Shown here piece by piece: positions 2,331 to 61,215 of a stretch of 64,000 nt of DNA (its first letter is position 1; each line of letters begins with the position of its first letter). Below the pieces are notes generated by a model that was not told the origin of the DNA, made no database searches, and saw only the letters and a program-made list of their open reading frames with translations. The DNA is taken from assembly GCF_006345805.1 (NCBI RefSeq), contig NC_043006.1, positions 46,066,001 to 46,130,000 of the forward strand, in the 5' to 3' direction. The position numbers were made by a program, and so were the translations under genes. This DNA is from Octopus sinensis. Taxonomy: Eukaryota.

Positions 2331-2677
2331 CCGAATTTTTGACTCCAGTACTTGACTGGTACAAATTTTATCGATCCCGAAGGGATGAAATGTACAGTCG
2401 ATCTCGGCGGAATTTGCACTCAGAACGTAGCGGCAGACGAAATACCTATTTCTTTACTACCCACAAGGGGTTAAATACAGAGAGGACAAACAAGGACAGA
2501 CAAAGGGATTAAGTCGATTATATCGACCTCAGTGCGTAACTGGTACTAATTAAACGACCCCGAAAGGATGAAAGGCAAAGTCGACCTCGGCGGAATTTGA
2601 ACTCAGAACATAGCGGCAGACGAAATACTGCTAAGCATTTTGCCTGGCATGCTAATATTTCTGCCAGCTCGCTGCCT
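2331..2677 (-). mobile_element. SINE-A dimer: young A1 unit joined at GAAATA|GGTATTTCG to an older diverged unit
   Basis: Head GGCAGCGAGCTGGCAGAAA (A-box-like), B-box GAGTTCAAATTC, central GCCTTTCATCCTTTCGGGGTCG motif resembling the Meta/MESC-type SINE domain. Confidence 0.9.
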
Positions 2678-2694
2678 CAATAATAATAATAATA

Positions 2695-2728
<34 letters not shown>

Positions 2729-2730
2729 GA

Positions 2731-3640
2731 TCTCATATATTTGCCACAAGGGCGAAGAATGAGGGGCACAATACAGAGACAGACATAACGTGTGGGGGTT
2801 TACATATAATAATGAAAAGGTGAAGAGTAAGTATTCACGGTATACACTGAAAAAGAAGGGACATAACCATAGCATACAAAAGTTTAGAAAAAAGGGGGAA
2901 GATGATAGAGATGTGGCCCTCCTGGTACAGGAAAGCCTCTAGGGATAATCGAAGAACCCCACTGTCCGAGACTTTCCTGAAATCACCAGGGGCAAGCGCC
3001 CTCTCCAATTTCTTCTCTCCGACTCACATATCTACACTTAGTGAGGTACAATCCACTCTTGCCATTTTCGCAACTTTCACCCACCTTTCAGTAAACTCAT
3101 TCGAGGACAGCGCTTCCCTCTCCACTCTCAATTTCCTTTTCAAGCGAAACGTGAAGAAGTCAGTGTGAGCTCTACCAAAGACGAATGTATGTCCTCATGC
3201 CTTTCAGCTTTGCTTACCAAACAACCTCTTTCGCCACAGCCACCAGGTAAAGGAAAACTGCCTTGCCTGCTCGATTGAAGGAGGGCGGCGGTGCAATCAC
3301 TGTGGGCTCGGTCGACAGACGGATCCATCCCATACGTGACAGCAGCTGTTCAACATAACCCCACAAGTCAGCAATGCTCGGACACTGAACGAGGGCGGGC
3401 AGAACGGTTTCGTTACTCTGCGTGCAACTCTGACAAGTCCGTCTGACAGCATATTCATGCTTGTAGATTTTATCTCGAACCAGTAGCGCCCCCCCCCCCC
3501 CCCCCCGATAACACTGCCAGGCCAAGGACATCTGGAAATTACCCATGATATTTCTCGACCGGAAAGACCTCCGGAAGAATAGCCGGTTCGTACTCGTCGA
3601 CACCCAGAGTTCCCCCGAAACTTCCTCGCTACTTATCCAC
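2731..3640 (-). mobile_element. 5'-truncated L1/Tx1-clade non-LTR retrotransposon (ORF2 C-terminal zinc-finger region plus 3' UTR), decayed
   Basis: ORF 3214-3603 reads LAWQCY..LLVRDKIYKH..RTCQSCTQSNETVLPALVQCPSIADLW, a CxxC..ET..(H)..C..W zf-RVT pattern typical of L1/Tx1 ORF2; the 3' end abuts a (TAA)n tract. Confidence 0.75.
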
Positions 3641-4036
3641 TATGGTTTCAAATTTTGCTACAAAGGCAGCCATTTTGGTGGAGAAGATGTATCGATTACA
3701 TTGATCTCAGTGTTCAACTCGTACTTATTTTATCGACACCGAAATGATGAAAGGTAAGGTAAAGCGGAATTTGAATGCAGAACGTAGCGTCGGGTGAAAT
3801 ACTTATTTCTTTACTACCCTCAAGGAGCTAAACACAGAGGGGACAAACAAGGACAGACAAACGGATTAACTCGATTACATTGACCCCAGTGCGTAACTGG
3901 TACTTATTTAATCGACCCCCGAAAGGACGAAAGGCAAAGTCGACCTCGGCAGAACTAGAACTCAGAACGCAACGGCAGACGAAATACCGCTAAGCATTTC
4001 GCCCGGCGTGCTAACGATTCAGCCAGCTCGCCGCCT
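3641..4036 (-). mobile_element. SINE-A dimer (A1 unit nested in an older copy)
   Basis: Same head and centre; GAAATA|AGTATTTC variant of the junction. Confidence 0.9.
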
Positions 4037-4272
4037 TAACAACAACGACAACAACAACACAACAACAACAACAACAACAGCAATATTGCAGGATTTCAAT
4101 AAATCATCAGTGGGAAAATGACCTTTTGAGCGGCATGGGCTGCTCAACCTGAAGAAAATTCTAATTGGGTGTTCTACCTGCAAGTTCATGCACTCTTTAT
4201 CTTGGTATGAGGTCATCATGTCGCGCACATATGGTTGTGATACATGTGTCTGGTGTATCAGGCACATGTACA

Positions 4273-4529: not shown

Positions 4530-5735
4530 CTGGACTCTAAATGAACTAATCAAAATAGACTGGAAAACAAGAATAATAGGATTTAGGACTTAGGACGCAC
4601 CACCCAAAATCTGACATAGAACGGCGATATATACAACGTATCGAAGGTGGTAGAGGCCTTATACAGCTAGAAAACTATTACACAGTAACCACCATAGGAC
4701 TACATAAATGCCTACTTCAGAAGCAAGGAAAACTAATAATCATAAAACACGAACAAAACAAAAAACTGTTTCCAGTCTTTAAGGAAGCTAACAAACACAA
4801 AAAAGAAGTCATCGTACCTAACAATTATGATGATAAAAGAAAAACAACAAAAGCTGTGAAACAACTGAAATCCAAACTAAAACTGGAACTGCAACGGATG
4901 ATGATAAAACGATAGCAACAAAACAGAAAAGAAATAGACAAAGCAAAAGCCCAACAAATGCTGAGTAGCTCAGGACTTAAAGCAGAGACTGAAGGATTTT
5001 TAATTGCAACTCAAGATCGAAGCCTTCCCATCAGAAATCACCAAAGACATATAATGAAAAGAAATGCAAGTAACTGCAAAATATGTGGTGATGGAGAAGA
5101 AACAATAAATCACATTGTCTCTGGCTGTCCAGTCCTGGCTAAGAAGGAATATATTCAGAGACACAACAGAGTTGGGACCTATATACACTGGAAACTATGC
5201 CAACACTATGGAATAACAACGGAAAAAAGATGGTATAAGTACATGCTAGAAAAGTTCACAGAGAGTGAAAAAGCAACAATACTCTGGCATATGGCAATAC
5301 ACACAGATAGAGAAATTAAACCGGACATAGTTGTCAGAGATCACCAAGAAAAATAATGCTTTCTGATCGATGTATCAATACCAACAGATGACAATGTTTC
5401 TTTAAAAGAAACAGAGAAACTTTCAAAATACAAAGGTCTCAAAATAGAGATAAATCCAATGTCGAGCTTAAAAACAGAAACAATTTCTATCATAGTAGGT
5501 GTGTTAGGTATGATAAAAAAACATTCAGACGAATACATAACAAAAACACCATGACCAACAAGTATATAAAACATACAGAAAATATGCACTATTAGGCACC
5601 GCACACATCCTACGTAAAACAATTTCAATGCAGGGAAAATAAGACCATAACAACGAATCACTACACATATCCAAGTTACATAGAACCGCGCTCGGTAGTG
5701 CAGTGAAAGCTCGTGATAAAAATACGACTACTGAA
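4530..5735 (+). mobile_element. R4/Dong-like RLE non-LTR retrotransposon, 3' portion, decayed
   Basis: CKICGDGEETINHIVSGC zinc knuckle, RHNRV, KPDIVV...LIDVSIP restriction-like endonuclease motifs; flanked by (TAA)/(TGA)n tracts. Confidence 0.88.
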
Positions 5736-6646: not shown

Positions 6647-6976
6647 TATTTCTTTATTACCCACAAGGGGCTAAACACAGAGGGGACAAACAAGGACAGA
6701 CATAGGTATTAAGTCGATTACATTGACCCCAGTGCGTAACTGGTACTTAATTTATCGACCCCGAAAGGATAAAAGGCAAAGTCGACCTCGGCGGAATTTG
6801 AACTCAGAACGTAATGGCAGGCGAAATACCGCTAAGCATTTCGTCTGACGTGCTAACGGTTCTGCCAGCTCGCCGCCTAGTCGACCTCGGCGGAATTTGA
6901 ACTCAGAACGTAATGGCAGGCGAAATACCGCTAAGCATTTCGTCTGACGTGCTAACGGTTCTGCCAGCTCGCCGCC
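6647..6976 (-). mobile_element. SINE-A1 with duplicated 99-bp head and 15-16 bp TSD
   Basis: TSD (C)TTGAAATGTGATACC at 6631-6646 and 6976-6991; identical repeat 6780-6878 / 6879-6977. Confidence 0.92.
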
Positions 6977-7131
6977 TTGAAATGTGATACCGACAGGTTG
7001 TGCTTTTCGAGGAAGAAATAAGAGCGCTGTTGATAAGTTGTGATGATTATAGTAGACAGAGGAAAACAATATTATTTGGTATATAAAGGATGAAAATGAA
7101 GTATTACTTGCACAAATAAAGAAGGCAGGTA

Positions 7132-8300
7132 CAGGGGTTGGACAAAATAATGGAAACACCTGAAAATTTCAAACAAACTAATTTTAATATGGGGTATGAC
7201 CGCCTTTGGCAGTAATTACAGCTTGAATTCTACGAGGTATGGGCTCGTACAAAGTTTGAATTGTTTCCAAAGGAATTTTTGTCCATTCTTCAGCTAAAAC
7301 AGTCTCCAGTTCTTGTAGTGATGATGATGGAGGATATCGACTCCTTACTTGTTTTTCTAAAAAATGCACCATAAATGTTCAATAATATTGAGATCTGGGG
7401 ACTGTGGTGGCCAGATAAGACGTTCACCTTCACTAGAATGTTCCTTGTTTCCATTCTTTAGCTGTGTAAATTGATGCATTATCATCTTGAAAGATTGCGT
7501 TTCCCTCCGTAAACAGTTCTGCAACCATAGGAGGAATTTGATCAAATAAAATGCTTAAATAGTCTTGACTATTAAGTCTGCCATGAAAGGAAAACATTGG
7601 GCCTGCAGATTTCCAAGATATAGCCCCCCCCCCCCCCCCCACCACAAATCATCACATATATTTCTCGATGATTAACAGTTGGAAGAAAGCAGTCTGGGTC
7701 AAATGCTTCTTTTGGCTGTCTCCACACGCATACTCGGCCAGTGGTCGGAAATAAGGTAAAGGATGACTCTTCCGAGAAAATAACATTCTTCCACTGCTCT
7801 AGGGACCAATTCTGTAGGTTTTTACTCCACTCTAAACGCTTTGCTACGTTTGCTTTTGAAAGTAGTGGTTTTCTGATTGCAGCTCTCCCATGAAATCCGG
7901 CTTTGTGCAGCTCCTGGTATGGAAACTGAGTTCTCGAGATGGTCATTAAGCTGTGCAGTAATTTGGGAGCTGTACTTTTGTGATCCTTTCTAACAATTCG
8001 TGTAAGAATCCGACGCTCCCTATCTGAAAGTTTTGGTTTTCTTCCGGAGTTTTGTTTCGGCGAGGAGATTTTTCCTTCTTTCTCAAAAGATGTCATTACT
8101 TTCGAGACAGTACTTCTTGATATACCAAACATTTCGGCTGTTTTCGTTACGCTAGCGCCTGCCATACGAGTACAAACAATTTGACCTCTTTGAAAGACCG
8201 ATCGCTCTGTCATTTTAATGAATTTTAATTACCTTTTTCTGATGACATCTGAAACGAAACAGCAATTTTTAGCAAAACATATTAACCAACACTAATAATA
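7132..8300 (-). mobile_element. Tc1-family DNA transposon with one TIR retained
   Basis: TA|CAGGGGTTGGACAAAATAATGGAAACACC terminus at 7130-7160; the matching TIR is not found at the other end. Confidence 0.88.
7184..8213 (-). pseudogene. Tc1 (DD34E) transposase pseudogene, frameshifted
   Basis: HTH N-terminus, GRKPKL, VIFSEES, FQDDNAS and WPPQSPDLNIIEHLW motifs spread over four ORF pieces. Confidence 0.92.
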
Positions 8301-8767
8301 AATGTGATCATAGAATCGAACTTTGGAAACCCAATATTGTAGTTGTAGACAAGAAAAGAAAATCATTCCTGATCATAGACATCACTTGTTCTAGGGATAG
8401 CAGAATCATCGAAAAAGCAAGAGAAAAACTTATGCAGTATGAAGCTCTGAGGAGAGAAATCAAAAATGGTGGTCAATGAAAAAAGTGTATATTGTGCAAA
8501 TAATAGTTGGTGTCCGAGGGTTAGTGAGTTAAGAAATTAAAAATTGGTCAGAAAACATAGGAATAAAAATGAAAATAGAGCGTATCCAGAAAACAGCATT
8601 ACTTGGCAGTGTAAAGAGTCTCTGTAAAGTTCTCGAGACTTGAAAAGAACATACCCTCTTCATATCACGAGATGTGAAGGGTTGGTACATAAAATGTACA
8701 TAAAGGACACCTCCAGCAACAGGCTATATCAGATATAATAATTATTTCTACTCTAGGAACAAGGCCT

Positions 8768-9472
8768 CTGACCCTAATTGCAGATTATGCGATACATTCA
8801 ACGAAACAGTAGACCATCTTGTCTCGGGATGTCCTATGCTGACACCAAACGAACACAAATATCGCCACGATTGTGTAGGACAGTATTTACATTGGAAAAT
8901 ATGTAAACACTACAAAATCAATACACCTGCTTACTGGCATGAACATCATCCTGAGCCAGTCGTTGAAGGTAAAAAATGTCACTAATCTCTGGGATTTTCC
9001 AGTCAACACTGACAGAACGATCCAGGCTAATAGACCAGACATAGTCATTGAAGATTGAGAAGAAAATACTTGTAGACTAATAGATGTAGGTGTTCCCACT
9101 GGTAAAAATTTATCTGTAAAGGAATTTGACAAATTAAGTAAACAGAAGGACCCGGAAATTGAAATACAAAAGATGTGGCGTCTTAAAGCGAGAACTGTTT
9201 CTGTTATTGTGGGTGTCCTGCGTATGGTAAGAAAGGGATGTCAAAAATATCTAGATAAGATCCCAGGAGAACCATGTCTCTGAGAAATCCAACACATCCT
9301 TAGAAAAACCCTATCAATTTAAATATCTGTGTTGTATTACATGAAGTTATTTCGCTACTGCCCCTGCCACTACCCCTCCGCAAGCTTTCAGTCATACTCT
9401 AACATCTCTTATCCTTCACTCGCCCAGGACGCTGGGTGTGCCTCGGCAAGTGACTGTAACAAACATGGAGTT

Positions 9473-9480
<8 letters not shown>
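8768..9480 (+). mobile_element. Third R4/Dong-like RLE non-LTR 3' end
   Basis: CRLCDTFNETVDHLVSGC, RHDCVG, NRPDIVI..LIDVGVP; 3' UTR runs into (TAAA)/(TAA)n. Confidence 0.88.
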
Positions 9481-10900: not shown

Positions 10901-11783
10901 ACATTTTTCATATATTTTCTATACAGTATCCGTCTGCCAAATGCTCTCACGAGACATTGGTCAGCTTGGAGTTAGAGTAAAAAAAATACTTGTCTAAGAT
11001 ACCTCGCAGCAGAACTGAACCCGAAACCATATGGTTGCAAAGCGAGGTTCTTAACCACACATCCGAAACTGTGCTTATGTTCTTCAAGATTTTGCTTTTG
11101 TTTCACATCAGACAACTATTTGTAGGTTATGAGTGAATTCAGTGTCTAGCATTAAAAAAAAAAAGTAGCATTTTCGAAATCTTCTGATGTTCTGTCTTGG
11201 GGGCTCTAAGATTTCTTCTTTCAACTTCTCAAACGTTTGCGGAATTTCACTTAGTGTTACATCGTCTTTTTTTTTTTTCGTTTTCTTGTTTGCTTTTCTC
11301 AATATCTGATCTTATTTTCTTACCTTTATCTTGTATCTTGATTTCACAAATACCAAAGAGGCTATTCTTTTCCGTTCAATCTTTGCTTCTATGTTGACGT
11401 TCCATCATAAGACGTTTTCGTTTTTGTATGTTCATAGATTATTTTCCTAACTAATATATATTGTCTGCGAGAATAATTGTGTTACTTACAAGTAGTATCT
11501 GTTACAGTCTGTTTACGACGATTTGCTGTTCATGTTTCAACATCTTGCTATTTTCTTCTACTCTGCATTAATGTTCTTTTTCATTAATTCTTCATTTACT
11601 TTTCACTCTAGAAGGGTGTGTCTTTCTAGTATAAATGTAAGTAATTTACAATGTCAGCTTCTTTTAATATTTCTTACTTCGAGTTTCTAATATATTCTGA
11701 CATATTGTTAAATTTGATATACTGCTGTAGTATTTTATAATTGTGGTTATTATTTTTACTTTTATTTTTGCTGTTGTTGAGCA

Positions 11784-12760
11784 GGCGGCGAGTAGGCAGA
11801 ATCGTTAGCACGTCGGGCGAATTGCTTAGCGGTATTTCGTCTGCGTTACGTTGTGAGTTCGAATTCCGCCGAGGTCGACTTTGCCTTTCATCCTTTCGGG
11901 GTCGATAAATTAAGCACCAGTTACGCACTGGGGTCGATGTAATCGACTTAATACCTATGTCTGTCCTTGTTTGTCCCCTCTATGTTTAGCCCCTTGTGGG
12001 TAATAAAGAAATAGGTATTTCGTCTGCGTTACGTTCTGAGTTCAAATTCCGCCGAGGTTGACTTTGCCTTTCATCCTTTCAGGGTCGATAAATTAAGTAC
12101 CAGTTACGCACTGGGGTCGATGTAATCGACTTAATACCTATGTCTGTCCTTGTTTGTCCCCTGTATGTTTAGCCCCTTGTGGGTAATAAAGAAATAGGTA
12201 TTTCGTCTGCCGTTACGTTCTGAGTTCAAATTCCGCCGAGGTCAACTTTGCTTTTCATCCTTTCGGGGTCGATAAATTAAGTACCAGTTACGCATTGGGG
12301 TCGATTTAATCGACCTAATCCCTTTTTTCTGTCCTTGTTTGTCCCCTGTATGTTTAGCTCCACGTGAGTAGTAAAGAAATAAGAATAGTTAGCGCGCCGG
12401 TCGAAATGCTTAGCGGTATTTCAGCTGTGTTTACGTTCTGAGTTCAAATTCTGCCGAGGTCGACTTTACTTTTCACCCTTTCAGGGTCGATAAATTAAGT
12501 ACTAGTTGCCTACTAAGGTCGATCTAATCGACTGGCCCCCTCCCCCAAAATTTTTGGCCTTGTGCCTAGAGTAGAAAAGAATCGTTAGCTCGCTGGTCGA
12601 AATTCTTAGCGGTATTTCACCCGTCGCTACGTTATGTGTTCAAATTTCGCCGAGGTCGACTTTGCCTTTCAACCTTTCGGGGTCAATAAATTAAGTACCA
12701 GTGAAACACTTATCCCTCCCCCACAAAATTTCAGGCCTTGTGCCTATAATAGAAAGATTT
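11784..12760 (+). mobile_element. SINE-A head-to-tail array of five units (three A1, two A2-type)
   Basis: Junctions GAAATA|GGTATTTCG (twice), GAAATA|AGAATAGTTAGC and AAAAGAAT|CGTTAGC. Confidence 0.92.
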
Positions 12761-17050: not shown

Positions 17051-17899
17051 GAAAAGTGTATAATTGAATAAACTGTACGTGTGTACGTGAGCGGGGCGGG
17101 GGAGACTTTGTGTCATAAATGCACAGATCGATACACAGTTAGATGGGTACTTAGATTGATAGATAGGGACATATATATAGAGATATATACTGGCGTGAAT
17201 TTCAATGAATAATTTGAAGAGATGAAACCTATTCAAATGTCATCATTCGATACCCTGATAGAGAAGGATAGTTAAAAAATGAAATTGAGGTAAAGATACC
17301 CGGCACGTGGGAAAATATTAATAAACTTGATTAAAGTTTATGTATGAAATTAGGAGAAAATGATGTGATTAGAGCAGATAACTCCTAGTTGAATGTTTCC
17401 ATGATGAATCAGATATAACACGTTGATATATTGGGTATTACGCATCGAGAAGACAAAACCGTCATGTCATGAATGATGGAAAGCTATTTCTTTCGTTGAA
17501 AAGATTCAGATTAATATTTACGCGCGTGCGCATGTGTGCGTATGTGCGTGTGAGTATGTATGTATATATATATATATATATGTATGTATGTGTGTGAGAT
17601 GTGTGTGTATATATGTATTTATATATATATAAATATATAATAATGTATGTGTGATGTGTGCGTGTGTTGGGGGGTGTATGCGTGCGTGTGTGTGTGTGTG
17701 AGTGTGTGTGTGTGGTTAATATCGAACAATGAGGTTTAGTGTTCAACACCGCATTATTGTTGGATATATATTCTTTATTTGTGGATTGACAAGGTCACCA
17801 TTGGTTTCATGCGGAAAGTTCTCTGCAATTATCAGGGCCTGTCACATAGGACTTTGGTATTCGCCAACATCTGATGCGTCTGTGTCTATGAATTAATTT

Positions 17900-19050
17900 T
17901 ATTTGATTTGATCTAGTTTCAGGTGATGAGCTATGGCCATGCTGGGGCACCGCCATTTGGTGTTGCTATTTTACTTCTCTAATTCTTTTTAGAAATTGCC
18001 GTTTGGTGCATGACGGAGTTTGATACCGTTCCCCTCATATGCACTTCCTTCTGTGAAGTTGGTTTATCTGGGACACTTGATAGTAAGAGGTCTAGTTTCG
18101 TTTTGAAGACATTTACATCCACCCTATGTAGGTCTCTTAGGTCCTTCCGGAGGATATTGAAGATCTGTGGGCCTTTAAAGTGAAGGCTGTTGCAATATCT
18201 TGTCCTAAATCTTGACGGCAAAGTTGGAGTCATTGGCACGAAGCAGTGGTGCCTTGTTCTAGCATTCGTAACTCTCGATGCCAGTGTTTGGAGCAAGTCC
18301 CTCTAGGATCTTCCAGATGTACATTATGCCATATAATTCCCGCCTATACTCTAGGGAGTAGAGCCTCAATCTCTTGAGTTTTTGCTAGTAGCTTATATGC
18401 TGCATAAAGGTTATCTTCTTCGTGTACCTTCGTTGGATTGCCTCAAGTTCTGCAATTAATTTTACAATGGTTGGTGACCAGACCTGGGAGCAACAGCCAA
18501 AGCGGCTGAGGACAAGTGTCCTCTAGAGGACCATCATGGTTTCTTGATCTCACGTTCTAAAAGTTCTAAGAATCCATCCGGTCAGCCACCTGCATTTCAT
18601 TGCCAACTTAGCAACATGCACATGAACGGATGCACCATTAGTCACATAAATGCCAGGTCTCGCAATGACTGTGTCTCTGGGGGTTTCAATCCCTCCAGAT
18701 CCAGTGTATTTAATTGGTATTGCCTTTAGTTTTGCATGTTGATAGTACAAGGCTTGAAACTTTTCACCATTAAACTGCATTCTATTCTTCTCAGCCCACT
18801 TAGCGCCTTCAGGGTTCTGTATCATCTGTGAGACTTTTGTATCATTTGCATAACTTGTGATCGTGGCTCACTGTGCAACTGAGGGAATATCTGAGAGGGC
18901 CATTATTAACAGTAGTGGTCCAAAAACAGTACCTTGCTCTCTATTTACGTGCCATTGGAGGTGGCCCCATTGGCTGCTACCACGTGACTTCTATCCTTCA
19001 GAAAGCCATGCAGTCATTCTCCCAGTTTCCGGACTATGCCAAGATCACGC
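17900..19050 (-). mobile_element. CR1-clade LINE, 5'-truncated and decayed
   Basis: GTVFGPLL..SYANDTK RT motifs, WAEKNRMQFNGEKFQAL, CSQVWSP, KGPQIFNIL..FKTKLDLLLSSVPD C-terminus; short 3' UTR with tandem tail. Confidence 0.85.
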
Positions 19051-19175: not shown

Positions 19176-19394
19176 TACTCTTACTCTTTTTACTCTATTA
19201 CTTGTTTCAGTCATTTTACTGCGGCCAAGCAGGAGCACCGCCTTTTAGTCGAGCAAATCGACCCCGGGACTTATTCTTTGTAAGCCCAGTACTTATTCTA
19301 TCGGTATTTTTTGCCGAACCGCTAAGTGACGGGGACGTAAACACACCAGCATCGGTTGTCAAGCGATGTTGGGGGGACAAACACAGACACACAA

Positions 19395-19455
<61 letters not shown>

Positions 19456-25038: not shown

Positions 25039-25452
25039 AGGCAGCGAGCTGGGAGAAACGTTAGCACGCCGGGCGAAATGCGTAGCCGTATTTCGTCTGC
25101 CGTTACGTTCTGAGTTCAAATTCCGCCGAGGTCGACTTTGCCTTTCATCCTTTCGGGGTCGATTAAATAAGTACCAGTTACGTACTGGAGTCGATATAAT
25201 CGACTTAATCCGTTTATATGTCCTTGTTTGTCCCCTCTGTGTGTAGCCCCTTGTGGGCAGTAAAGAAATAGGTATTTCGTCTGCCGCTACGTTCTGAGTT
25301 CAAATTCCGCCGAGGTTGACTTTGTCTTTCATCCTTTCGGAGTTGATTAAATAAGTACCAGCTACGCACCGGGGTCAATATAATCGACTTAGTCCGTTTG
25401 TCTGTCCTTGTTTGTCCCCTCTATGTTTAGCCCCTTGCGGGCAATAAAGAAT
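25039..25452 (+). mobile_element. SINE-A1 dimer
   Basis: GAAATA|GGTATTTCG junction at ~25270. Confidence 0.92.
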
Positions 25453-27235: not shown

Positions 27236-27840
27236 TAGGCGTATGGTAAGTGGCTGTATGGTAAGTAGCTTGCTTACCAACCACATGGTTCCGGGTTCAG
27301 TCCCACTGCGTGACACCTTGGACAAGTGTCTTCTACTATAGCCGCGGGCCGACCAAAGCATTGTGAGTGGATTTGGTAGACGGAAACTGAAAGAAGCCCG
27401 TCGTATATATGTATATGTGTGCGTGTTTGTGTGTCTGTGTTTGTCACCCCAACATCGCTTGATAATAGGAGTGGCTGTGTGGTAAGTAGCTTGCTTACCA
27501 ACCACATGGTTCCGGGTTCAGTCCCACTGCGTGACACCTTGGACAAGTGTCTTCTACTATAGCCGCGGGCCGACCAAAGCATTGTGAGTGGATTTGGTAG
27601 ACGGAAACTGAAAGAAGCCCGTCGTATATATGTGTATGTGTGCGTGTTTGTGTGTCTGTGTTTGTCACCCCAACATCGCTTGATAAACGATGCTGGTGTG
27701 TTTACGTCGCCCGTAACTTAGCAGTTCGGCAAAAGAGACCGATAGAATAAGTACTAGGCTTACAAAGAATAAATCCTCGACTAAAGGCGGTGCTGTAGCA
27801 TGGCCGCAGTCAAATAACTGAAACAAGTAAAAGAGTAAAG
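27236..27840 (+). mobile_element. SINE-B with tandem duplication of its 5' ~225 bp
   Basis: Both halves share private variants (TAGCCGCGGGCC, GCTTGATA). Confidence 0.9.
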
Positions 27841-30329: not shown

Positions 30330-31078
30330 TTTTTTTCTGCACTAGACAAAAAGCCCGAAATTTTGGGGAGGGGGCCAGTTGATTAGATCAACCACAGTAC
30401 TCAACTGATACTTAATTTATCGACCTCGAAAGGATGAAAGACAAAGTCGACCTTGGCGGAATTTGAACTCAGAACGTAAAGACAGACGAAATACTTTTCG
30501 CCCGGCGTACTAATGTTTCTTATTTCTCTATTGCCCACAAGGGGCTAAACATAGAGGGTACAAACAAGGACAGACAAACAGATTAAGTCGATTACATTGA
30601 CCCCAGTGCGTAACTGGTATTTATTTAATCGATCCCGAAACGATGAAAGGCTAAGTCGAACTCGGCGGAATTTGAACTCAGAACGTAAAGACAGACGAAA
30701 TACCTATTTCTTTACTACCCACAAGGGGCTAAACATAGAGGGGACAAGCAAGGACAGACAAAGGGATTAAGTCGATTACATCGAGCCCAGTACGTAACTG
30801 GTACTTAATTTATCGACCCCGAAAGTATGAAAGGCAAAGTCGACCTCGGCAGAATTTGAACTCAGAACGTAACGGCAGATGAAATACCGCTAAGCAATTC
30901 GCCCGGCGTGCTAACGTTTCTGCCAGATTGCCAACTTATATACTGCGTTATATTCTTTTCTACTGTAGGCACAAGTCCCGAAATTTTTGGGGAGGTGTCC
31001 AATCGATTAGATCGACCTACAGTACACAACTGGTACTTAATTTATCAACCCCGAAAGGATGAAAGGCAAAGTTGACCT
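30330..31078 (-). mobile_element. SINE-A trimer plus partial fourth copy
   Basis: Junctions GAAATA|GGTATTTCG and GAAATA|AGAAACATTAG. Confidence 0.9.
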
Positions 31079-31625
31079 GTTTTTACGTTCTGAATTCAAA
31101 TTCCACCAAGGTCGACTTTGCCTTTCATCCTTTCGAGGTCGATAAATTAAGCACCATTTGCGTACTGGAGTCGACCTAATCGACTGCCCCCACCCCTCTC
31201 CCAAAATTTCAGTCAAAATGCTTAGAGAGGCGTTTCGTCCGTCTAAACATTCTGAGTTCAAATTCCGCTGAGGTCGACTTTGCTTTCGCCCTTCCGGGGT
31301 CAATAAAATAAGTACCAGTTGTGTATTGGGGGTCAATGCAATCGACTTGAATCGCTTCCCTATAATTTCAGGTCTTGTGCGTATAGAAGAAGGAATTATT
31401 TGTTGATAGCTTAGAGCGGCGAGCTGACAGAATCGGTAGCACATCCAGCAAAATGTTTAATGACATTTTGTCCCTCTTTACATTCTGAGTTCAAAAGAGA
31501 CCGATAGAATAAGTACTAGGCTTACAAAAAATAAGTCCTGGGGTCGATTTGCTCAACTAAAGGTGGTGCTTCAGCATGGCCACAGTCAAATGACTGAAAC
31601 AAGTAAAAGAGTAAAGAGTAAAGAG
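31079..31625 (+). mobile_element. Plus-strand SINE-A pieces and a SINE-A-head/SINE-B-tail chimera
   Basis: A head 31415-31494 fused at ..GAGTTCAAA|AGAGACCGATAG to the B 3' end. Confidence 0.8.
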
Positions 31626-35237: not shown

Positions 35238-36229
35238 ATATATATATTTCATTTATTTTCTTTTTATCACGATGAAGAGCTGCAGTATGTTAGATGTGTC
35301 TAATGTGTGCAAAAGCCCCGTGTCTTGGGTTCGATAAACGTTCACATTTAGTTCAATCTCACCAACTCTGTTGTAAGCGACAGCAATTTCGTAACTCATT
35401 TCAGAAACCTCCGAAAGCATTGAAGTCTACCCCAGAAACATTGAAACGCCGGTGACATTTCAACAACAGATTTGCCATTCTGCTTTCTTGGTTGGCGCCA
35501 ACATCATTCTTGATATTGTATAATAAATTAGAGGACAAGATATGAGAATTACGAAATTTCTGTCGCTTTCAACAGAGTGAAATTGGAAGAAATACGAATG
35601 TCTATTGAACCCAAGGCACGGGGCTTTTGTATACATTAATCTTGTATCTAACATACTGCAGCTCTTCATTGCGATAAGAAAAAAGGAAAAAAACATATAT
35701 ACATATTACTCTTTTACTCTTTTACTTGTTTCAGTCATTTGACTGCGGCCATGCTGGAGCACCGCCTTTAGTAGAGCAAATCGACACCAGAATTTATTCT
35801 TTGTAAGCCTAGTGCTTATTCTATCGGTCCGTTTTGCCGAACCGCTAAGTTACGGGGACGTAACACACCAACATCGGTTGTCAAGCGATGTTGGGGGACA
35901 AACACAGGCACACAAACATACACACACACACACACGCGCACACACATATATATATATACATATATACGATGGGGTTTTTTCAGTTTCCGTCTGCCAAATC
36001 CACTCACAAGGCTTTGGTCTGCCCGAGACTATAGTTGAAGACACTTGCCCAAGGTGCCATGCAGTGGGACTGAACCCGGAACCATGTGGTTGGTAAGCAA
36101 GCTACTTACGACACAGCAACTCCTACGCCTATATGTAAAATTTATCCATTGCTCAACTCCTCAATCGAAATTTGCTACCGCCTGAGGAGGCGCTGTGGAA
36201 ATGGTATTAGAAATAGTAATGGAGATGGT
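35047..36229. repeat. Large imperfect inverted repeat (foldback-like element)
   Basis: 35047-35162 is the reverse complement of 36131-36229; 35255-35398 is the reverse complement of 35543-35693. Confidence 0.8.
35706..36131 (-). mobile_element. SINE-B inserted in the right arm of the inverted repeat
   Basis: Complete match. Confidence 0.92.
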
Positions 36230-36399: not shown

Positions 36400-37929
36400 C
36401 TGTCAGGTTCTTTTGCTGAAATGCTAAGTTGCTGGGACTTAAATGCACCAACACCGGTTGTCAAGAGGTGGGGTCAGTGGTGAAGATGAAGACAGATACA
36501 AAATACACACGCGCATATAAGACAGGCTTCTTTCAATTTTCGTCAGCCAAATCCACTCATAAGGTTTTGGTCGCCTCGAGGCTATTGTAGAAGACACTGG
36601 TACGTACTTTATCGACCCCAAAAGGATAAAAGATAAAGTCGGACTCGGCGAATTTTGAACTCAGAACGTAAAGACGGGCGAAATGCCGCTGGGCATTTTA
36701 CACAGTGTGCTAATGAATCTGCTAGCTCACTGCCTTTAATAATAATAATCCTTTCTACTAAAGGCACAAGGCCTGAAATTTGGAGTGGGGGATAGTCGAT
36801 TAGATCGACCCCAGTGTTTCACTGGTACTTAATTTATCAACCTCGGTGGAGTTTGAACTTAAAATGCTAAACATTTCGTCCACCATGATACCGACTTTGC
36901 CAGCTCACCGCCTTAATATTCTTTTCTACTCTTGGCACAAGGCTCAAACTTTTGAGGGAGAGGGCCCAATCGATTAGATCTACCCCAGTACGAAACTGGT
37001 GCTTAATTTATTGACTCCGAAAGGATGAAAGGCAACGTCGACCTCGGCGGAATTTGAATTCAGAACGTAAAGACAGACGAAATACTGCTAAGCGTTTCTC
37101 CAGGCATACTAACGTTTCTGCCCGCTCGCCATCTTTCACCGCCTTCCACTGCCTTAATATTCTTTTCTAATCTAGGCACAAGACCCAAAATCTTTGGGGA
37201 GTGGGGCCAGTCAATTAGATCAACCCCAGTACGCAACTGGTACTTAATTTATTGACCCCGAAAGGGTGAAAGGCAAAGTCGACCTCGGCGGAATTTGGAT
37301 TCAGAACGTAGCGGCAGACGAAATACCTATTTCTTTACTACCCACAAGGGGCTAAACACAGAGGGGACAAACAAGGACAGACAAACGGATTAAGTCGATT
37401 ACATCGACCCCAGTGCGTAACTAGTACTTAATTTATCGACCCCGAAAGGATGAAAGGCAAAGTCGACCTCGGCGGAATTTGAACTGAGAACGTAGCGGCA
37501 GACGAAATACCTATTTCTTTACTACCCACAAGGGGCTAAACACAGAGGGGACAAACAAGGACAGACAAACGGATTAAGTCGATTACATCGACCCCAGTGT
37601 GTAACTGGTACTTAATTTATCGACCCCGAAAGGATGAAAGGCAAAGTCGACCTCGGCGGAATTTGAACTGAGAACGTAGCGGCAGACGAAATACCTATTT
37701 CTTTACTACCCACAAGGGATTAAACACGTAGAGGACAAACAAGGACAGACAAACGGATTAAGTCGATTACATTGACCCCAGTGCGTAACTGGTATTTAAT
37801 TTATCGACCCCGAAAGGATGAAAGGCAAAGTCGACTTCGTCGACGGAATTTGAGCTCAGAATGTAACGGCAGACGAAATACGGCTACGCATTTCGCCCGG
37901 CGTGCTAACGTTTCTCCCAGCTCGCCGCC
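36400..37929 (-). mobile_element. SINE cluster: old SINE-B part, three SINE-A copies, then a four-unit SINE-A array with 184-bp period
   Basis: Unit boundaries at 37328, 37512 and 37696. Confidence 0.92.
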
Positions 37930-38441
37930 TTTCACCGCCTTAATATTAATAATATTAACTAGAACAACAAAAGTAGTATATCAACAACAACAACAACAAT
38001 AATAACAACAAACAAACAACAACAACAACTGCTGCAAACCAAATATCTCTGTTTTTGAAGGAATAAACTGGATTAAAAATAACACAATAATATTTTAAAT
38101 TTTGTTGGTATTTTTTTAATAAAAAGGCCTACGAATTAAATAGTTCTGCTCAGGCATGTACAGTCAGATTTACCTGAAATATTGATAGATTTTACGGTGA
38201 AGAAATATTTGGTTTTGCAATTATTAAAGGGATTTAATTCGTAAATCTGTCAAATCTCCCAATGAAAATACACAATGATTCTAAAATAACAAAAAATATA
38301 CACTCAAAAAATATAATTTAACAAGTAAAAGAGAAAGCTGGCGATTTGCAGAAGGCAGAGAAAGACGTCAGGCGAAATAAGTTTGTTGTTGCTTGTAAGG
38401 TTTTGAGATTATTTCGAAGATGGTTGATTTTGATTTTTTCA

Positions 38442-42811: not shown

Positions 42812-43027
42812 TACTCTTTTTACTCTTTTACTTGTTTCAGTCATTTTGACTGCGGCCATGCTGGAGCACCGCCTTTAATCGAGCAACTCGACCCCGGGAC
42901 TTATTCTTTGTAAGCCCAGTACTTATTCTATCGGTCTCTTTTGCCGAACCGCTAAGTTACGGGGACATAAACACACCAGCATCGGTTGCCAAGCGATGTT
43001 GGGGGGACAAACACAGATATACAAACT

Positions 43028-45978: not shown

Positions 45979-46210
45979 TTATTTCTTTATTGCCCACAAG
46001 GGGCTAAACATAGATGGGACAAACAAGGACAGACAAAGGTATTAAGTCGATTACATCGACCCCAGTGCGTAACCGGTACTTATTTAATCGACCCTGAAAG
46101 GATGAAAGGCAAAGTCGACCTCTGCCGAATTTGAACTCAGAACGTAACGGCAGACGAAATACAGCTAAGCATTTCGCCCGGCGTGCTAACGTTTCTGCCA
46201 GCTTGCCGCC
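45979..46210 (-). mobile_element. SINE-A1 monomer
   Basis: Complete match; TSD about AAACGTTA. Confidence 0.92.
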
Positions 46211-47369: not shown

Positions 47370-48174
47370 CATACATATATACATACATACATGCATATAT
47401 ACGAAAACACTCTGTTGTTGATGTTGAAATTTCAATGAAGTAGCCTTGAATCTAGGATACATACATATACTTAATATATGTATGTATATATATATAAATA
47501 TATATATATATATACACATCAAAACACACACACACACACGCATACAGGTGTGCGCATACTTACATATATTTATGTATGTAGGTAGGTAAATGTATGAACA
47601 CGCATATATGTGTATGTATATTATATCTATGTATTTATATGTATATGTACACACACACACACACGCATACGCGTGCACACTCACACACACACACACACAT
47701 ACACTCACACACACGCATTACAAAATACGCTAAGGGAAATAACTGGGAAAGTGATAATTGCATGAATTGAATTCACTCCAGTCAGCACCTTCCTGATTTT
47801 CGAAATTCATATCAATGTCCCTCATGAGAGTTATGTCCCTTCTTTTATTTATTCTTCTGACTATGGAAATTACTAACCGTCACAGTTATCCATAATTACT
47901 TGCTGTGCCAGCAATTCTTTGTCTCTTGTAATAAACACCTCACTTCACTGAGAATCTTAAAAAAACTACTGATAATTATTTTCATTTTATCTACTTTGAA
48001 ATAATAATCAATTTTCAGTAGTTTTAAAACTTTTACGTACATCAATAGGTCCACTACCAATATAAAGCATATTGCTCAGTGGTTAGAGGGTTCGTTTCAC
48101 AATCATGAGGTAGTGTGATCAATTCCCGCAATGGGCTGTGTGTTGTGCTCTTGAACAATACGCTTCATTTTATT

Positions 48175-48778
48175 TAGCACGCCGGACAAAATGTTTCGTG
48201 GTATTTCGTCTGTCTTTACGTTCTGAGATCAAATTCCGCCGAGAGGTTGGCTTTGCCTTTCATAAATTCGGGGTCGATAAATTAAGTACCAGTTGTGTGC
48301 TGGGGTTGATCTAATCGGCTGGCCACCTCTCCCAAAATTTCGGGCCTTCTGTGTAGAGTAGAAAAAAATATATAGTGGTTGTCGGAAGGTCGGCTGGCAG
48401 AAACGTTAGCACGCCGGACGAAATGCTTAGCGGTATTTCGTGTCTTTACGCTCATGGTTCAAATTCCGCCGAGGTCGACTTTACCTTTCATTCTTTCGGG
48501 GGTCGATAAATTAAGTACCATTGGGGTTGATCTAATTGATTGGCTCCCTCCCCCCAAATTTCGGGCCTTATACCTAGAGTAGAAAAGAATATACAGTTAT
48601 AGTAGGGCGGCGAGCTGGCAGAAACGTCAACACACCGGGCGAAATGCTTAGCAGTATTTTGTCGACTTTGCCTTTCATCCTTTTGGGGTCGATAAAATAA
48701 GTACCAATGGGGGGTCGATCTAATCGAGTGGGCCACTCACCCAAAATTTCGGGTCTTGTGACTAGAGTAGAAAAGAAT
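48175..48778 (+). mobile_element. Three tandem SINE-A (A2 tail) copies
   Basis: Each ends AGAGTAGAAAA(G)AAT. Confidence 0.88.
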
Positions 48779-48866
48779 ACGTCCACTACTACAAGTCTCA
48801 CTTGTCTAAATGTATGACATTACTCACTTGAGGTATTTCACCGAGCTATTTTTATGGATAGCTATT

Positions 48867-53050: not shown

Positions 53051-53490
53051 GGCACAATCGTTACCACGCTGGGGAAATGCTTAGCGGTATTTCGGCGGCG
53101 AGCTGGCAGAAATGTTAGCACGTCGGGCGAAATGCCTAGAGGTATTTCGTCTGCCGTTACGTTGTGAGTTCAAAATTCCGCCGAGGTCGACTTTGCCTTT
53201 CATCCTTTTGGGGTCGATAAATTAAGTACCAGTTACGCACTGGGGTCAATGTAATCGACTTAATACCTATGTCTGTCTTTGTTTGTCCCCTCTATGTTTA
53301 GCCCCTTGTGGGTAATAAAGAAATAGGTATTTCGCCCGTCTTTACGTTCTGAGTTAAAATACCACCGAGGTCGGCTTTGACGTTTGTCGTTTCGAGGTCG
53401 ATGGAATAAGTTCCAGTTGATTACTGGGGCGATGTAATCGACTGACCCCTCACCCAAAACTGCTGATCTTGTATTAAAATTTGAAATTCA
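53051..53490 (+). mobile_element. Old SINE-A containing a full-length SINE-A1 (53094-53325) with TSD
   Basis: GGTATTTC(G) at 53086-53093 and 53326-53333. Confidence 0.93.
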
Positions 53491-53564: not shown

Positions 53565-54299
53565 TACTCTTTTACTCTTTTACTTGTTTCAGTCATTTGA
53601 CTGCGGCCATGCTGGAGCACCACCTTTAATCGAGCAACTCGACCCCGGGACTTATTCTTTGTAAGCCCAGTACTTATTCTATCGGTCTCTTTTTGCCGAA
53701 CCGCTAAGTGACGGGGACATAAACACACCAGCATCGGTTGTCAAGTAATGCTAGGGGGAGATACACAGACACGCAAACACACAGACATACATATATATAT
53801 ATATATATATATACATATATACGACGGGCTTCTTTCAGTTTCCGTCTACCAAACCCCCACTCACAATGCTTTGGTCGGCCCGAGGCTATAGTAGAAGACA
53901 CTTGTGCCCAAGGTACCACGCAGTGGGACTGAACCCGGAACCATGTGGTTGGTAAACAAGCTACTTACCACACATCCACTCCTGCGCCTATATATATACA
54001 TATCATATATACATATCATAAAAACAAATTCGCACTGTTGCAAATGTATATACATATATACGACAGGCTTCTTTCAGTTTCCGTCTACCAAACCCCCACT
54101 CACAATGCTTTGGTCGGCCCGAGGCTATAGTAGAAGACACTTGTGCCCAAGGTACCACGCAGTGGGACTGAACCCGGAACCATGTGGTTGGTAAACAAGC
54201 TACTTACCACACATCCACTCCTGCGCCTATATATATACATATCATATATACATATCATAAAAACAAATTCGCACTGTTGCAAATGTATATACATATATA
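53565..54299 (-). mobile_element. SINE-B plus a 239-bp tandem duplication of its 5' half and flank
   Basis: 53811-54060 is nearly identical to 54050-54299. Confidence 0.9.
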
Positions 54300-60249: not shown

Positions 60250-61215
60250 TAAAAGGTTGCAGCTTCAAAGCTGCAGCCATGCTGGGATACCACCGTTGAC
60301 TGACCTACACCATAATCTAAAGCTTCCTTGATATGTGGCATTTGGTCAATGAGGGAGTTTTATGCCGCTGTCTTCGTCCGTGTTTCCTGCCGTGAGGTAG
60401 GCTCGTCTGGAACCCGCAACAGGAGATCCAGGTTTGTTTTAAAGACACTTACATCCACACCATGCAGGTCTCTCAGGCATTTTGGAAGGATATTAAAAAA
60501 GCTGTGGGCCCTTGAAGCCCAAGCTGTTGCAGTATCTGGTCCTGTGTATTTTGATGGCGACGCTGGGATCATTGGCACTATGCAGTGGCGCCCCTTTCTT
60601 CAGTTTGAATAACTTCCCATGCCAAAGTTTGGTACAAGGCCTTCTAGGATTTTCCAGATGTATATCACTGAATATCCCTCCCGCCTTCGTTTCATGGAGA
60701 AGAGTTCCAATTCTTTCAGTTTTTCCCAGTAGCTCATACGTTGCATTGAGACGATTGCTTCGAGTTCCGCCGTGAATTTTATAGTGTGTGGTGACCATAG
60801 TTGGGAGCAGTAGTCCAAGCGGCTGAGGAGGTAGGTCCTCCAAAGGACCATCGACTCTCCTTTTCTCTTGTTTTGAAAGTTCGGGGGATCCATCCAACTA
60901 GCCGTATGCATATTATTACGAAATTGGTAATATGCACTTGAAAAGATGCATCATTGCTCATGTCAATGACAAAGTCAAGCACTGATTTTTATTCAGGGAT
61001 TGCAATCCCTCCTGGGCCTTGTTGTTGTCCTCAGCCCACCTGTATATTATGTCCAACTCCCGTCGCAGATGTGCAGTATTTCCAGAATTTTGTATTGTCT
61101 CAGAGACTTTTGTGTCATCTGCACAGCTAGCAAGGGTGGCAATGTGAATAGCTGGAGGGCATGTCTGAAAGGGCCCCTATGAATAGCAGTGGCCCTCCGA
61201 CAGTTCCCTGAGAAA
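60250..61215 (-). mobile_element. CR1-clade LINE, 5'-truncated and decayed
   Basis: GVSQGTVGGPLLF, LSRLDYCSQLWSP, YIWKILEGLVPN, FNILPKCLRDL..FKTNLDLLL. Confidence 0.87.

What the first reader, a model, noticed from the sequence alone, without database searches (positions are those of the whole stretch)
2731..2787. SINE-A1 tail is homologous to the 3' end of a Tx1-type LINE lying beside it
Seen: the LINE 3' end (minus strand) TATGTCTGTCTCTGTATTGTGCCCCTCATTCTTCGCCCTTGTGGCAAATATATGAGA aligns along its length with the A1 tail, e.g. 11956-12013 TATGTCTGTCCTTGTTTGTCCCCTCTATGTTTAGCCCCTTGTGGGTAATAAAGAAATA. Established: SINEs borrow LINE 3' ends to be mobilised, and Tx1-group elements include many sequence-specific inserters, whereas mammalian L1-dependent SINEs rely on poly(A) and share no tail. 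Inference: a stringent Tx1/SINE partnership that would also explain SINE-A site preference. The A2 and A3 tails share GCCTTGTG and may come from sister LINE subfamilies.
Basis: partly seen in the sequence, partly recalled or inferred. Interest (0 to 1): 0.75.

Follow-up and report, generated by a model that had tools for sequence, protein, structure and literature searches.

The report
SINE tail borrowed from Tx1-type LINE
In what looks like an octopus genome, an abundant short parasitic repeat ends in nearly the same 60-base, hairpin-bearing tail as a neighbouring broken long retrotransposon of a group not known to lend its tail, which probably points to the kind of enzyme that spreads the short repeat, although only one copy of the long element could be examined.

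Summary
2787-2731 (minus) is the end of a 5'-truncated, decayed L1/Tx1-group LINE (about 3643-2731; ORF2 stop at 3026-3024, 293-nt 3' UTR) and aligns end to end with the SINE-A1 tail (43 of 61 columns against the A1 majority sequence; 0 of 5000 shuffles reach the score; best of 2456 non-A1 tiles). A window-wide profile search is weak (E 0.26). New here: the LINE end, A1 tails and A2/A3 tails share a GC stem closing a CUUGU loop, with two-sided base-pair changes, which argues against a decayed A1 scrap. A1 has a real target preference (RGTAT after 11 of 15 ends, mostly nt ~50 of another SINE-A; TSDs of 16 and 9 nt contain it), but this LINE copy is not at that site, so it does not itself explain the preference; a sister Tx1-type family is the likelier driver. 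No second LINE copy was obtainable, so 'native LINE end' is inferred, not shown. Tx1 rather than L1 rests on similarity scores, not on a rooted tree. No tail-sharing Tx1/SINE pair appeared in the papers searched; Repbase and Dfam were not searchable.

The parts
3024..3643 (-). C-terminal part of a Tx1-type ORF2 (zf-RVT/CCHC region to stop codon at 3026-3024); 5'-truncated, broken by frameshifts near 3570-3630 and near 3189, an in-frame stop near 3214 and a G-run at about 3505-3490
   Evidence: 5' edge read by eye (tblastn starts at 3630)
2788..3023 (-). LINE 3' UTR upstream of the shared tail, pyrimidine-rich; no other copy in the window and no SINE core
2731..2787 (-). Terminal 57 nt of the LINE, collinear with the SINE-A1 tail
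2743..2753 (-). Hairpin GCC-CUUGU-GGC, counterpart of CCC-CUUGU-GGG in A1 and GGC-CUUGU-GCC in A2/A3
2680..2728 (-). (TTA)n tract following the LINE end (own tail repeat or target site; cannot be told apart)
2447..2678 (-). Full-length SINE-A1 followed by GGTAT and a truncated older SINE-A body (2446-2339)
3644..3803 (-). Older A3-type SINE body and tail; the LINE begins directly behind its tail
   Evidence: 90 of 118 identity to the A1 body
3804..4037 (-). Full-length SINE-A1 placed at nt ~50 of the A3 copy
6647..6977 (-). Solo A1 (with a duplicated 99-nt head) flanked by a 16-nt TSD that begins GGTAT, outside any SINE
11782..12381 (+).
53093..53325 (+). Full-length A1 inside an older A3 copy at nt ~50, 9-nt TSD beginning GGTAT, old head retained upstream
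37328..37931 (-). Array of three A1 units followed by an A2 body and tail

Best explanation
The 57 nt are the native 3' end of an octopod Tx1-type LINE, and SINE-A tails were taken from LINEs of this lineage. Mechanism (inferred from the stringent LINE/SINE model): SINE-A RNA presents a short GC stem with a CUUGU loop near its 3' end; the ORF2 protein of a Tx1-type LINE binds it, nicks the target and reverse-transcribes the SINE there (target-primed reverse transcription), so the SINE inherits the nick preference of that enzyme. A1, A2 and A3 are tail swaps onto one SINE body from sister families. The copy at 2731-3643 is a sister or older form of the A1 driver rather than the driver itself. 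The A1 driver prefers C/RGTAT, a site that SINE-A carries at its own nt ~50, so A1 piles up inside older SINE-A copies; where no old head is left upstream, the new 5' end probably joined by homology to the old head. Shown: sequence homology, hairpin with two-sided changes, LINE group, A1 flank preference, TSDs. Inferred: native status of the LINE end, RNA recognition, which family mobilises A1, homologous 5' joining.
For: Homology beyond shuffles and beyond all other tiles and LINE ends. It starts where A1, A2 and A3 tails part from the common body and stops at the A1 3' end; no SINE core upstream. A three-GC-pair stem around CTTGT occurs 16 times in the window, 15 in SINE-A tails and once at the LINE end; 200 block shuffles give mean 0.07, max 1. 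All 15 A1 tails pair at all four stem positions; pair 3 is C-G in 14 of 15 A1 and G-C in the LINE and in 15 of 19 anchored A2/A3 rows; pair 2 is C-G in A1 and the LINE but G-C in 12 of 19 A2/A3 rows (33 of 33 cells paired, 10 of 500 shuffles as high, slid controls 21-67%). The LINE copy differs at 19 of 89 columns invariant in 7 relatives (about 10% per base), too little for a 25-30% diverged A1 piece of the same age (P about 0.001-0.017). Nearest named proteins: Argonauta hians 67% to P0001; an alligator protein named 'transposon TX1 149 kDa' 196 bits against 79 bits for human L1 ORF2p, itself the best solved-structure match ahead of R2 at 50; full-length relatives are APE endonuclease + RT + zf-RVT, and more distant ones carry a zinc-knuckle ORF1. 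RGTAT follows 11 of 15 A1 ends at 8 of 9 loci (background 0.002), and lies inside both TSDs at 6647 and 53325. Array units are mostly as different within (0.92, 8 pairs) as between loci (0.90, 97 pairs) and right arms are older (90-108 of 118 vs 109-115), which fits repeated insertion. Published LINE/SINE tail matches in bivalves span 35-61 bp at 72-95% (PMC11481361 passages).
Against: One LINE copy only; no second 3' end found. nhmmer E is only 0.26 and the halves alone are unremarkable. Identity (70-74%) is at the lower edge of published pairs. The hairpin is small: MFE folds of 60-nt tails show it in 3 of 4 A1 tails but not in the LINE end, whose best fold is another one; in 39-nt windows the closing pair has probability 0.92 in the LINE and 0.01-0.93 in A1; the two-sided change between LINE and A1 is a single event. 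The LINE is not at the RGTAT site and has no detectable TSD. An isolated 31-nt A2-like tail at 8766-8736 shows that core-less SINE tails can occur. Two array pairs are 0.97-0.99 alike and may be local duplications. The tree has no L1 reference, and the octopod clade is not joined with support to the TX1-named protein.
Confidence: 0.65

Rival explanations
1. The 57 nt are a 5'-truncated piece of a SINE-A subfamily not sampled in this window, which landed behind the true LINE end or was joined to it by a template switch; the LINE clade then says nothing about the SINE's partner.
For: SINE-A is very dense here and clusters with itself; a core-less 31-nt A2-like tail exists at 8766-8736; the LINE end mixes an A1-like upstream part with a (TTA)n ending typical of A2/A3; only one LINE copy seen.
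Against: No orphan A1 tail elsewhere in the window; none of 36 SINE-A tails listed has the LINE's stem; the break would have to fall exactly at the body/tail boundary; no poly(A), long repeat or TSD separates UTR and tail; divergence exceeds the copy's decay.
Confidence: 0.22
2. The end is common to the whole LINE family but was captured from a SINE (reverse direction), or LINE and SINE both took it from a third element that is the real partner.
For: Module shuffling among SINEs and LINEs is common (PMC11481361 and PMC4824008 passages); the 5' half of the A1 tail also resembles a motif inside the window's other abundant SINE.
Against: The usual direction is LINE to SINE (PMC3747384, PMC4176376 passages); the other LINE ends in the window (two Dong/R4-like, two CR1-like by recalled motifs) do not match the A1 tail.
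Confidence: 0.07
3. Chance or convergence of two pyrimidine-rich TG/TC-laden ends.
For: nhmmer E 0.26; 5' half equalled by unrelated repeat tiles.
Against: 0 of 5000 composition-matched shuffles; best of 2456 tiles; match sits at the very end of both elements, same strand sense, with the shared hairpin expected 0.07 times per window.
Confidence: 0.06

Closest known systems
SINEU / Tx1-Mar of crocodilians (Kojima 2015, PMC4494074; section 16 and passages read)
   Same: A SINE assigned to Tx1-clade machinery; insertion at fixed positions of another repeat; tandem copies from sequential insertion.
   Different: SINEU has snRNA heads and poly(A) tails; the link rests on shared targets, and the paper states that no non-LTR family sharing the 3' terminus of SINEU-1 was detected. 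Here the link is a shared structured tail, and the preferred target is the SINE itself.
ZmSINE2/ZmSINE3 with LINE1-1_ZM (maize, sorghum) and SINEX-3_CR with L1-1_CR (Ohshima 2012, PMC3472496, first third read; Ohshima 2013, PMC3747384, passages)
   Same: [quoted passage not shown]
   Different: Plant and algal L1 lineages, not animal Tx1; different loop; no self-targeting reported in what was read.
Stringent L2, CR1, CR1-Zenon, Nimb and RTE partners of mollusc and fish SINEs (PMC11481361, PMC4824008, PMC4758252, PMC4176376; passages)
   Same: One SINE body with exchangeable LINE-derived tails of 35-61 bp; stem-loop recognition; tandem SINE arrays in bivalves.
   Different: Partner clade: the bivalve survey names CR1, CR1-Zenon, L2 and Nimb and never mentions Tx1 (0 occurrences in text and 8 supplements).
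Octopus OK, OR1, OR2 SINEs (Ohshima and Okada 1994; seen only as a reference entry) and octopus 'tRNA-Deu' / 'tRNA-Core' and L1-Tx1 repeats (PMC8967140 passages, PMC13282606 parts 1-2 and supplement)
   Same: SINE-A is probably one of the known abundant octopus tRNA-type SINEs, and L1-Tx1 LINEs are known in O. vulgaris (80 families, 56 Mb; 13 recently active).
   Different: No partner LINE, tail homology or target preference is given in what was read; no sequences were available to test identity.

Membership tests
L1/Tx1 group of non-LTR retrotransposons | ORF2 with APE endonuclease, RT and C-terminal cysteine-rich (zf-RVT) region | tested here: met
   zf-RVT in the window copy; RT in relatives at 58-70% identity to it; APE + RT + zf-RVT in full-length members of the same supported clade; best PDB match human L1 ORF2p. 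The window copy itself lacks RT and endonuclease.
Tx1 clade (within the L1 group) | RT groups with reference Tx1 elements, apart from L1, in a phylogeny | tested here: inconclusive
   196 bits to a TX1-named alligator protein vs 79 to human L1; tree of 58 of 323 RT segments has no L1 reference or outgroup and leaves the octopod/cuttlefish clade (SH-aLRT 100) in an open fork.
Tx1 clade (within the L1 group) | ORF1 with CCHC zinc knuckle (recalled feature) | tested here: inconclusive
   Seen only in distant relatives with fused gene models (P0351, P0273); ORF1 of this family not available.
Tx1 clade (within the L1 group) | Target-sequence preference (frequent, not universal) | not testable with these tools
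   One copy, next to a (TTA)n tract, no TSD.
Stringent LINE/SINE pair | SINE tail homologous to the LINE 3' terminus | tested here: met
   (one LINE copy)
Stringent LINE/SINE pair | Shared stem-loop with compensatory changes | tested here: met
   only 3-4 pairs, thermodynamically weak
Stringent LINE/SINE pair | The tail is the consensus end of the LINE family | not testable with these tools
   No second copy
Stringent LINE/SINE pair | Same insertion signature in LINE and SINE | tested here: not met
   A1: RGTAT after 11 of 15 ends; this LINE copy: (TTA)n, no RGTAT. One LINE copy only, so this lowers 'this family drives A1', not 'a Tx1-type family drives A1'.
Stringent LINE/SINE pair | LINE protein mobilises the SINE in a tail-dependent way | not testable with these tools
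   needs a retrotransposition assay
tRNA-derived SINE (SINE2) | tRNA-like head with Pol III A and B boxes | tested here: inconclusive
   A-box-like and B-box-like motifs read by eye against recalled consensus (print), spaced about 60 nt; ARAGORN 0 genes, no Rfam tRNA match.
tRNA-derived SINE (SINE2) | Short, interspersed, non-coding, TSDs | tested here: met
   233-nt unit, dozens of copies, TSDs of 16, 9 and 8 nt at 3 of 4 A1 loci tested
Deu/Nin, CORE, Meta or V SINE superfamily | Conserved central domain | tested here: inconclusive
   Short motifs of the SINE-A body found no exact counterpart in the supplements searched; domain consensus sequences were not obtainable.

The most novel reading that the evidence does not exclude
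The dominant SINE-A family of octopods rides wholly on a cephalopod Tx1 lineage that recognises a CUUGU hairpin; each tail type is tuned to a sister LINE with its own endonuclease target, and the A1 driver cuts a site inside SINE-A itself, so every new SINE copy creates a new harmless target. That would be the first animal Tx1/L1-group element shown to be stringent through a shared tail, and a self-feeding loop that could help explain the octopus-specific SINE expansion.
Probability: 0.27. Interest if true: 0.8.

Novelty: new variant of a known kind. Interest (0 to 1): 0.56.

Why it matters
LINE-derived SINE tails are textbook, but L1-group donors are rare (three SINEs among 58 pairs in Ohshima 2012, all plant or algal) and the one Tx1/SINE link found in the searches (SINEU) shares targets, not tails. 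An animal Tx1-type LINE with a structured tail shared by a SINE would fill the gap in the model that L1-group elements were ancestrally stringent and relaxed later, would name the driver clade of a major octopus repeat (SINEs are 11.6% of O. vulgaris, PMC13282606), and offers a 60-nt RNA handle plus a five-base target preference that can be tested directly. The self-targeting of A1 is a finding of its own, whichever LINE drives it.

Tried and rejected
Second copy of the LINE end: self-BLAST and tblastn of 120 relatives against the window show one Tx1-type locus; genome contigs by protein alignment gave 52 pattern matches, none confirmed; genome contigs by a tail motif gave 2 matches in long bacterial contigs, about the number I estimated for chance, not examined further; plasmids no match; 377 stored proteins show no read-through into the UTR or tail. 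Viral and metagenome contig collections stayed unchecked. Names and accessions of the unnamed relatives could not be looked up. Rfam gave nothing relevant. The idea that SINE-A is a MetaSINE was a recollection and found no support in the supplement read. A1 as mere left arm of a fixed dimer: rejected, since solo A1 copies have TSDs and right arms differ in type and age. GGTAT as part of the SINE end: rejected, since it recurs upstream of the head in two TSDs. Dong/R4-like and CR1-like ends as tail donors: low scores against A1; no LINE end among the hits of A2 and A3 tail profiles. mis-anchored three A1 tails (3869, 12315, 25389) as A2/A3; one search corrected this, left out 2 of 21 A2/A3 rows without an anchor (23963, 53443) and still holds one mis-anchored row (31185). 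The binomial value for RGTAT is not used, because loci were scored as 'at least one end' and may not be independent. Paper searches for a Tx1-derived SINE tail or octopus partner LINE; none listed such a case. Repbase Reports, Dfam, SINEBase sequences, Ohshima and Okada 1994 and the Zenodo library of PMC13282606 were out of reach and may already hold it; SINEBase supplements and one supplement of PMC4758252 could not be read.

Full report
Setting. The window is AT-rich, microsatellite-laden animal DNA with two abundant SINEs and several LINE scraps. The closest named protein to the LINE family is from Argonauta hians, an octopod (67% to P0001; lineage), with a cuttlefish protein in the sister branch, so the source is most likely an octopod; the species was not determined.

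Observation. On the minus strand the order is: A1 SINE (4037-3804), older A3 body and tail (3803-3644), LINE (about 3643-2731), (TTA)n (2728-2680), A1 SINE (2678-2447). The LINE piece encodes the C-terminus of ORF2: zf-RVT, 70% identity to P0001, a 574-aa RT + zf-RVT protein from an unnamed source, with tblastn matches from 3630 to 3033 in two frames. The stop is at 3026-3024, followed by 293 nt to 2731. It is the only Tx1-type locus in the window.

Is the tail match more than chance? Against the majority tail of 14 A1 copies the last 57 nt match at 43 of 61 columns; 0 of 5000 dinucleotide shuffles of the UTR or the tail, and 0 of 1500 of the whole fragment, reach the score under either of two scoring schemes. 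Among 2456 real 100-nt tiles without an A1 tail the LINE end ranks first (35 vs 31; 23 vs 17), and four other LINE ends score 10-13 and 6-7. Against this, a profile search of the whole window ranks it third among non-A1 hits at E 0.26, and neither half is special alone. The similarity begins where the three SINE-A tail types part from the shared body and does not extend upstream.

A shared hairpin. Aligning the tails of 35 SINE-A copies with the LINE end showed a common element: a short GC stem around CUUGU. A scan for three GC pairs around CTTGT finds 16 sites on both strands, 15 in SINE-A tails and one at the LINE end (2753-2743); 200 block shuffles give 0.07 on average. The stem is CCC/GGG in A1, GGC/GCC in A2/A3 and GCC/GGC in the LINE. 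All 15 A1 tails pair at four positions, including a C-G to U-A change in one copy; the LINE has G-C where 14 of 15 A1 have C-G. On an 11-row alignment (LINE plus 10 of the 15 A1 tails) 33 of 33 cells pair, 10 of 500 shuffles do as well, slid controls pair 21-67%; the tool warns that relatedness can inflate this. The hairpin is thermodynamically modest: it appears in 3 of 4 A1 minimum-energy folds of 60 nt but not in that of the LINE, while in a 39-nt window the LINE's closing pair has probability 0.92.

Native LINE end or SINE scrap? The LINE copy differs at 19 of 89 residues invariant in seven relatives, about 10% per base (the relatives differ at 0-4, Argonauta at 17). A1 tails are 52-57 of 58 identical to their majority, the LINE end 25-30% different; decay of 10% gives that with P about 0.001-0.017. 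With the two-sided change, this makes a decayed A1 piece unlikely. A piece of an unsampled SINE-A subfamily stays possible: a core-less 31-nt A2-like tail lies at 8766-8736 inside a Dong/R4-like LINE. The decisive test, a second LINE copy, could not be run.

Clade. The best solved-structure match is human L1 ORF2p (79 bits; R2 50). Full-length members of the same supported clade are about 1150 aa with APE endonuclease, RT and zf-RVT. A protein named 'transposon TX1 uncharacterized 149 kDa protein' from alligator scores 196 bits. A quick tree of 58 of 323 RT segments gives a cephalopod-containing clade of 12 rows at SH-aLRT 100 but has no L1 reference, so Tx1 versus L1 is by score only. L1-Tx1 is a known octopus repeat class (PMC13282606 parts 1-2 and supplement; PMC8967140 passages).

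Target preference. RGTAT follows 11 of 15 A1 ends, at 8 of 9 loci (background 0.002 per position); ten of these are nt ~50 of another SINE-A, two further ends are followed by nt ~17 of a SINE-A, and two are elsewhere. The motif belongs to the target: it is duplicated in a 16-nt TSD at 6647/6977 outside any SINE and in a 9-nt TSD at 53094/53325; the solo copy at 45980 has an 8-nt TSD without it, and no TSD was found at 25039/25451. Right arms are older (90-108 of 118 against 109-115 for A1 bodies) and of mixed tail type; array units are on average 0.92 alike within and 0.90 between loci, with two pairs at 0.97-0.99 that may be local duplications. Repeated site-preferring insertion with homologous joining at the 5' side explains head-(A1)n-older-tail arrays (inference). 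The LINE copy, however, follows an A3 tail and precedes (TTA)n, with no TSD and no RGTAT. It therefore does not show the A1 signature; a sister family is the likelier driver. Read-through priming is an alternative source of the preference, since no T4 terminator follows the tail directly in most copies.

Mechanism. By the stringent LINE/SINE model (PMC4176376 passages; PMC3747384 passages) ORF2 binds a 3' stem-loop, nicks DNA and primes reverse transcription. I infer that SINE-A acquired its tails from Tx1-type LINEs, with the CUUGU loop as the shared recognition element and stem and flank differences tracking sister families. Confidence 0.65.

Comparison. SINEU and Tx1-Mar are linked by shared targets, have poly(A) tails and no shared 3' terminus for SINEU-1 (PMC4494074 section 16 and passages). 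L1-group tails were found in three of 58 SINE/LINE pairs, in maize and a green alga (PMC3472496 first third; PMC3747384 table passages). Mollusc SINE partners named so far are CR1, CR1-Zenon, L2 and Nimb (PMC11481361 passages and supplement search; PMC4824008 passages, section 9 and part of a supplement; PMC4758252 passages). Passages of PMC10294476, PMC5753468, PMC5786205, PMC3531059 and PMC5804259 added no such pair. Ten searches listed no tail-sharing Tx1/SINE case; subscription papers, Repbase and Dfam were not covered. The labels Dong/R4-like and CR1-like for other fragments, the A/B box consensus and the zinc-knuckle ORF1 criterion are recalled, not from a call.

Verdict. Real homology with structural support, probable Tx1-type donor, real but separately caused-looking A1 site preference; single-copy evidence. 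New variant of a known kind; interest 0.56.

Noticed in passing
window 8736-8766 (minus): 31-nt match to the A2 tail (E 3e-4) with no SINE core, lying antisense inside the coding region of a Dong/R4-like LINE just before its cysteine motif; either a severely truncated A2 insertion with target deletion or a coincidence, since the spacing of the host frame looks unchanged.
   Followed up: partly
window 4530-5730 (+) and 8650-9480 (+): Two Dong/R4-like LINE 3' fragments (label recalled; zf-RVT in the first) ending in (TAA)n tracts; SINE-A copies often sit in the opposite orientation in the same tracts.
   Followed up: partly
window 36735-37209, 12533-12760, 48174-48780, 30932-31495: A2-type SINEs form head-to-tail clusters in which one tail's ATTA end is followed directly by the next head, suggesting a second target preference at (TTA)n next to a SINE head, the arrangement also seen for the LINE.
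   Followed up: partly
window 12381/12382 and 30521/30520: Second A1 site at nt ~17 of SINE-A, within the A-box-like motif; both sites follow GC.
   Followed up: partly
window 19371-19396, 27426-27450, 35893-35917, 43001-43025: The other abundant SINE carries an internal motif that resembles the 5' half of the A1 tail as well as the LINE does.
   Followed up: no
A1 3' junctions, e.g. window 12008-12021: The last six bases of the A1 tail and the target after GG form a short inverted repeat across the junction.
   Followed up: no
window 6780-6977: Exact 99-nt duplication of the SINE head (100% match) inside a solo A1 with a 16-nt TSD, possibly a template jump during insertion or an assembly duplication; similar 99% duplications at 27249-27686 and 53808-54299.
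   Followed up: no
window 7572-8228 (minus): Tc1/mariner transposase fragment (HTH_Tnp_Tc3_2, E 4e-10).
   Followed up: no
window 17890-18870 and 60250-60950 (minus): Two CR1-like LINE 3' fragments (label recalled) whose ends resemble each other and, by eye, the 3' end of the window's other SINE (shared GGCGGTG..CCAGCATGGC-type motif), hinting at a second SINE/LINE pair.
   Followed up: no
protein P0005: A close relative of this animal retroelement is deposited under a bacterial metagenome-assembled genome name, most likely host contamination.
   Followed up: partly
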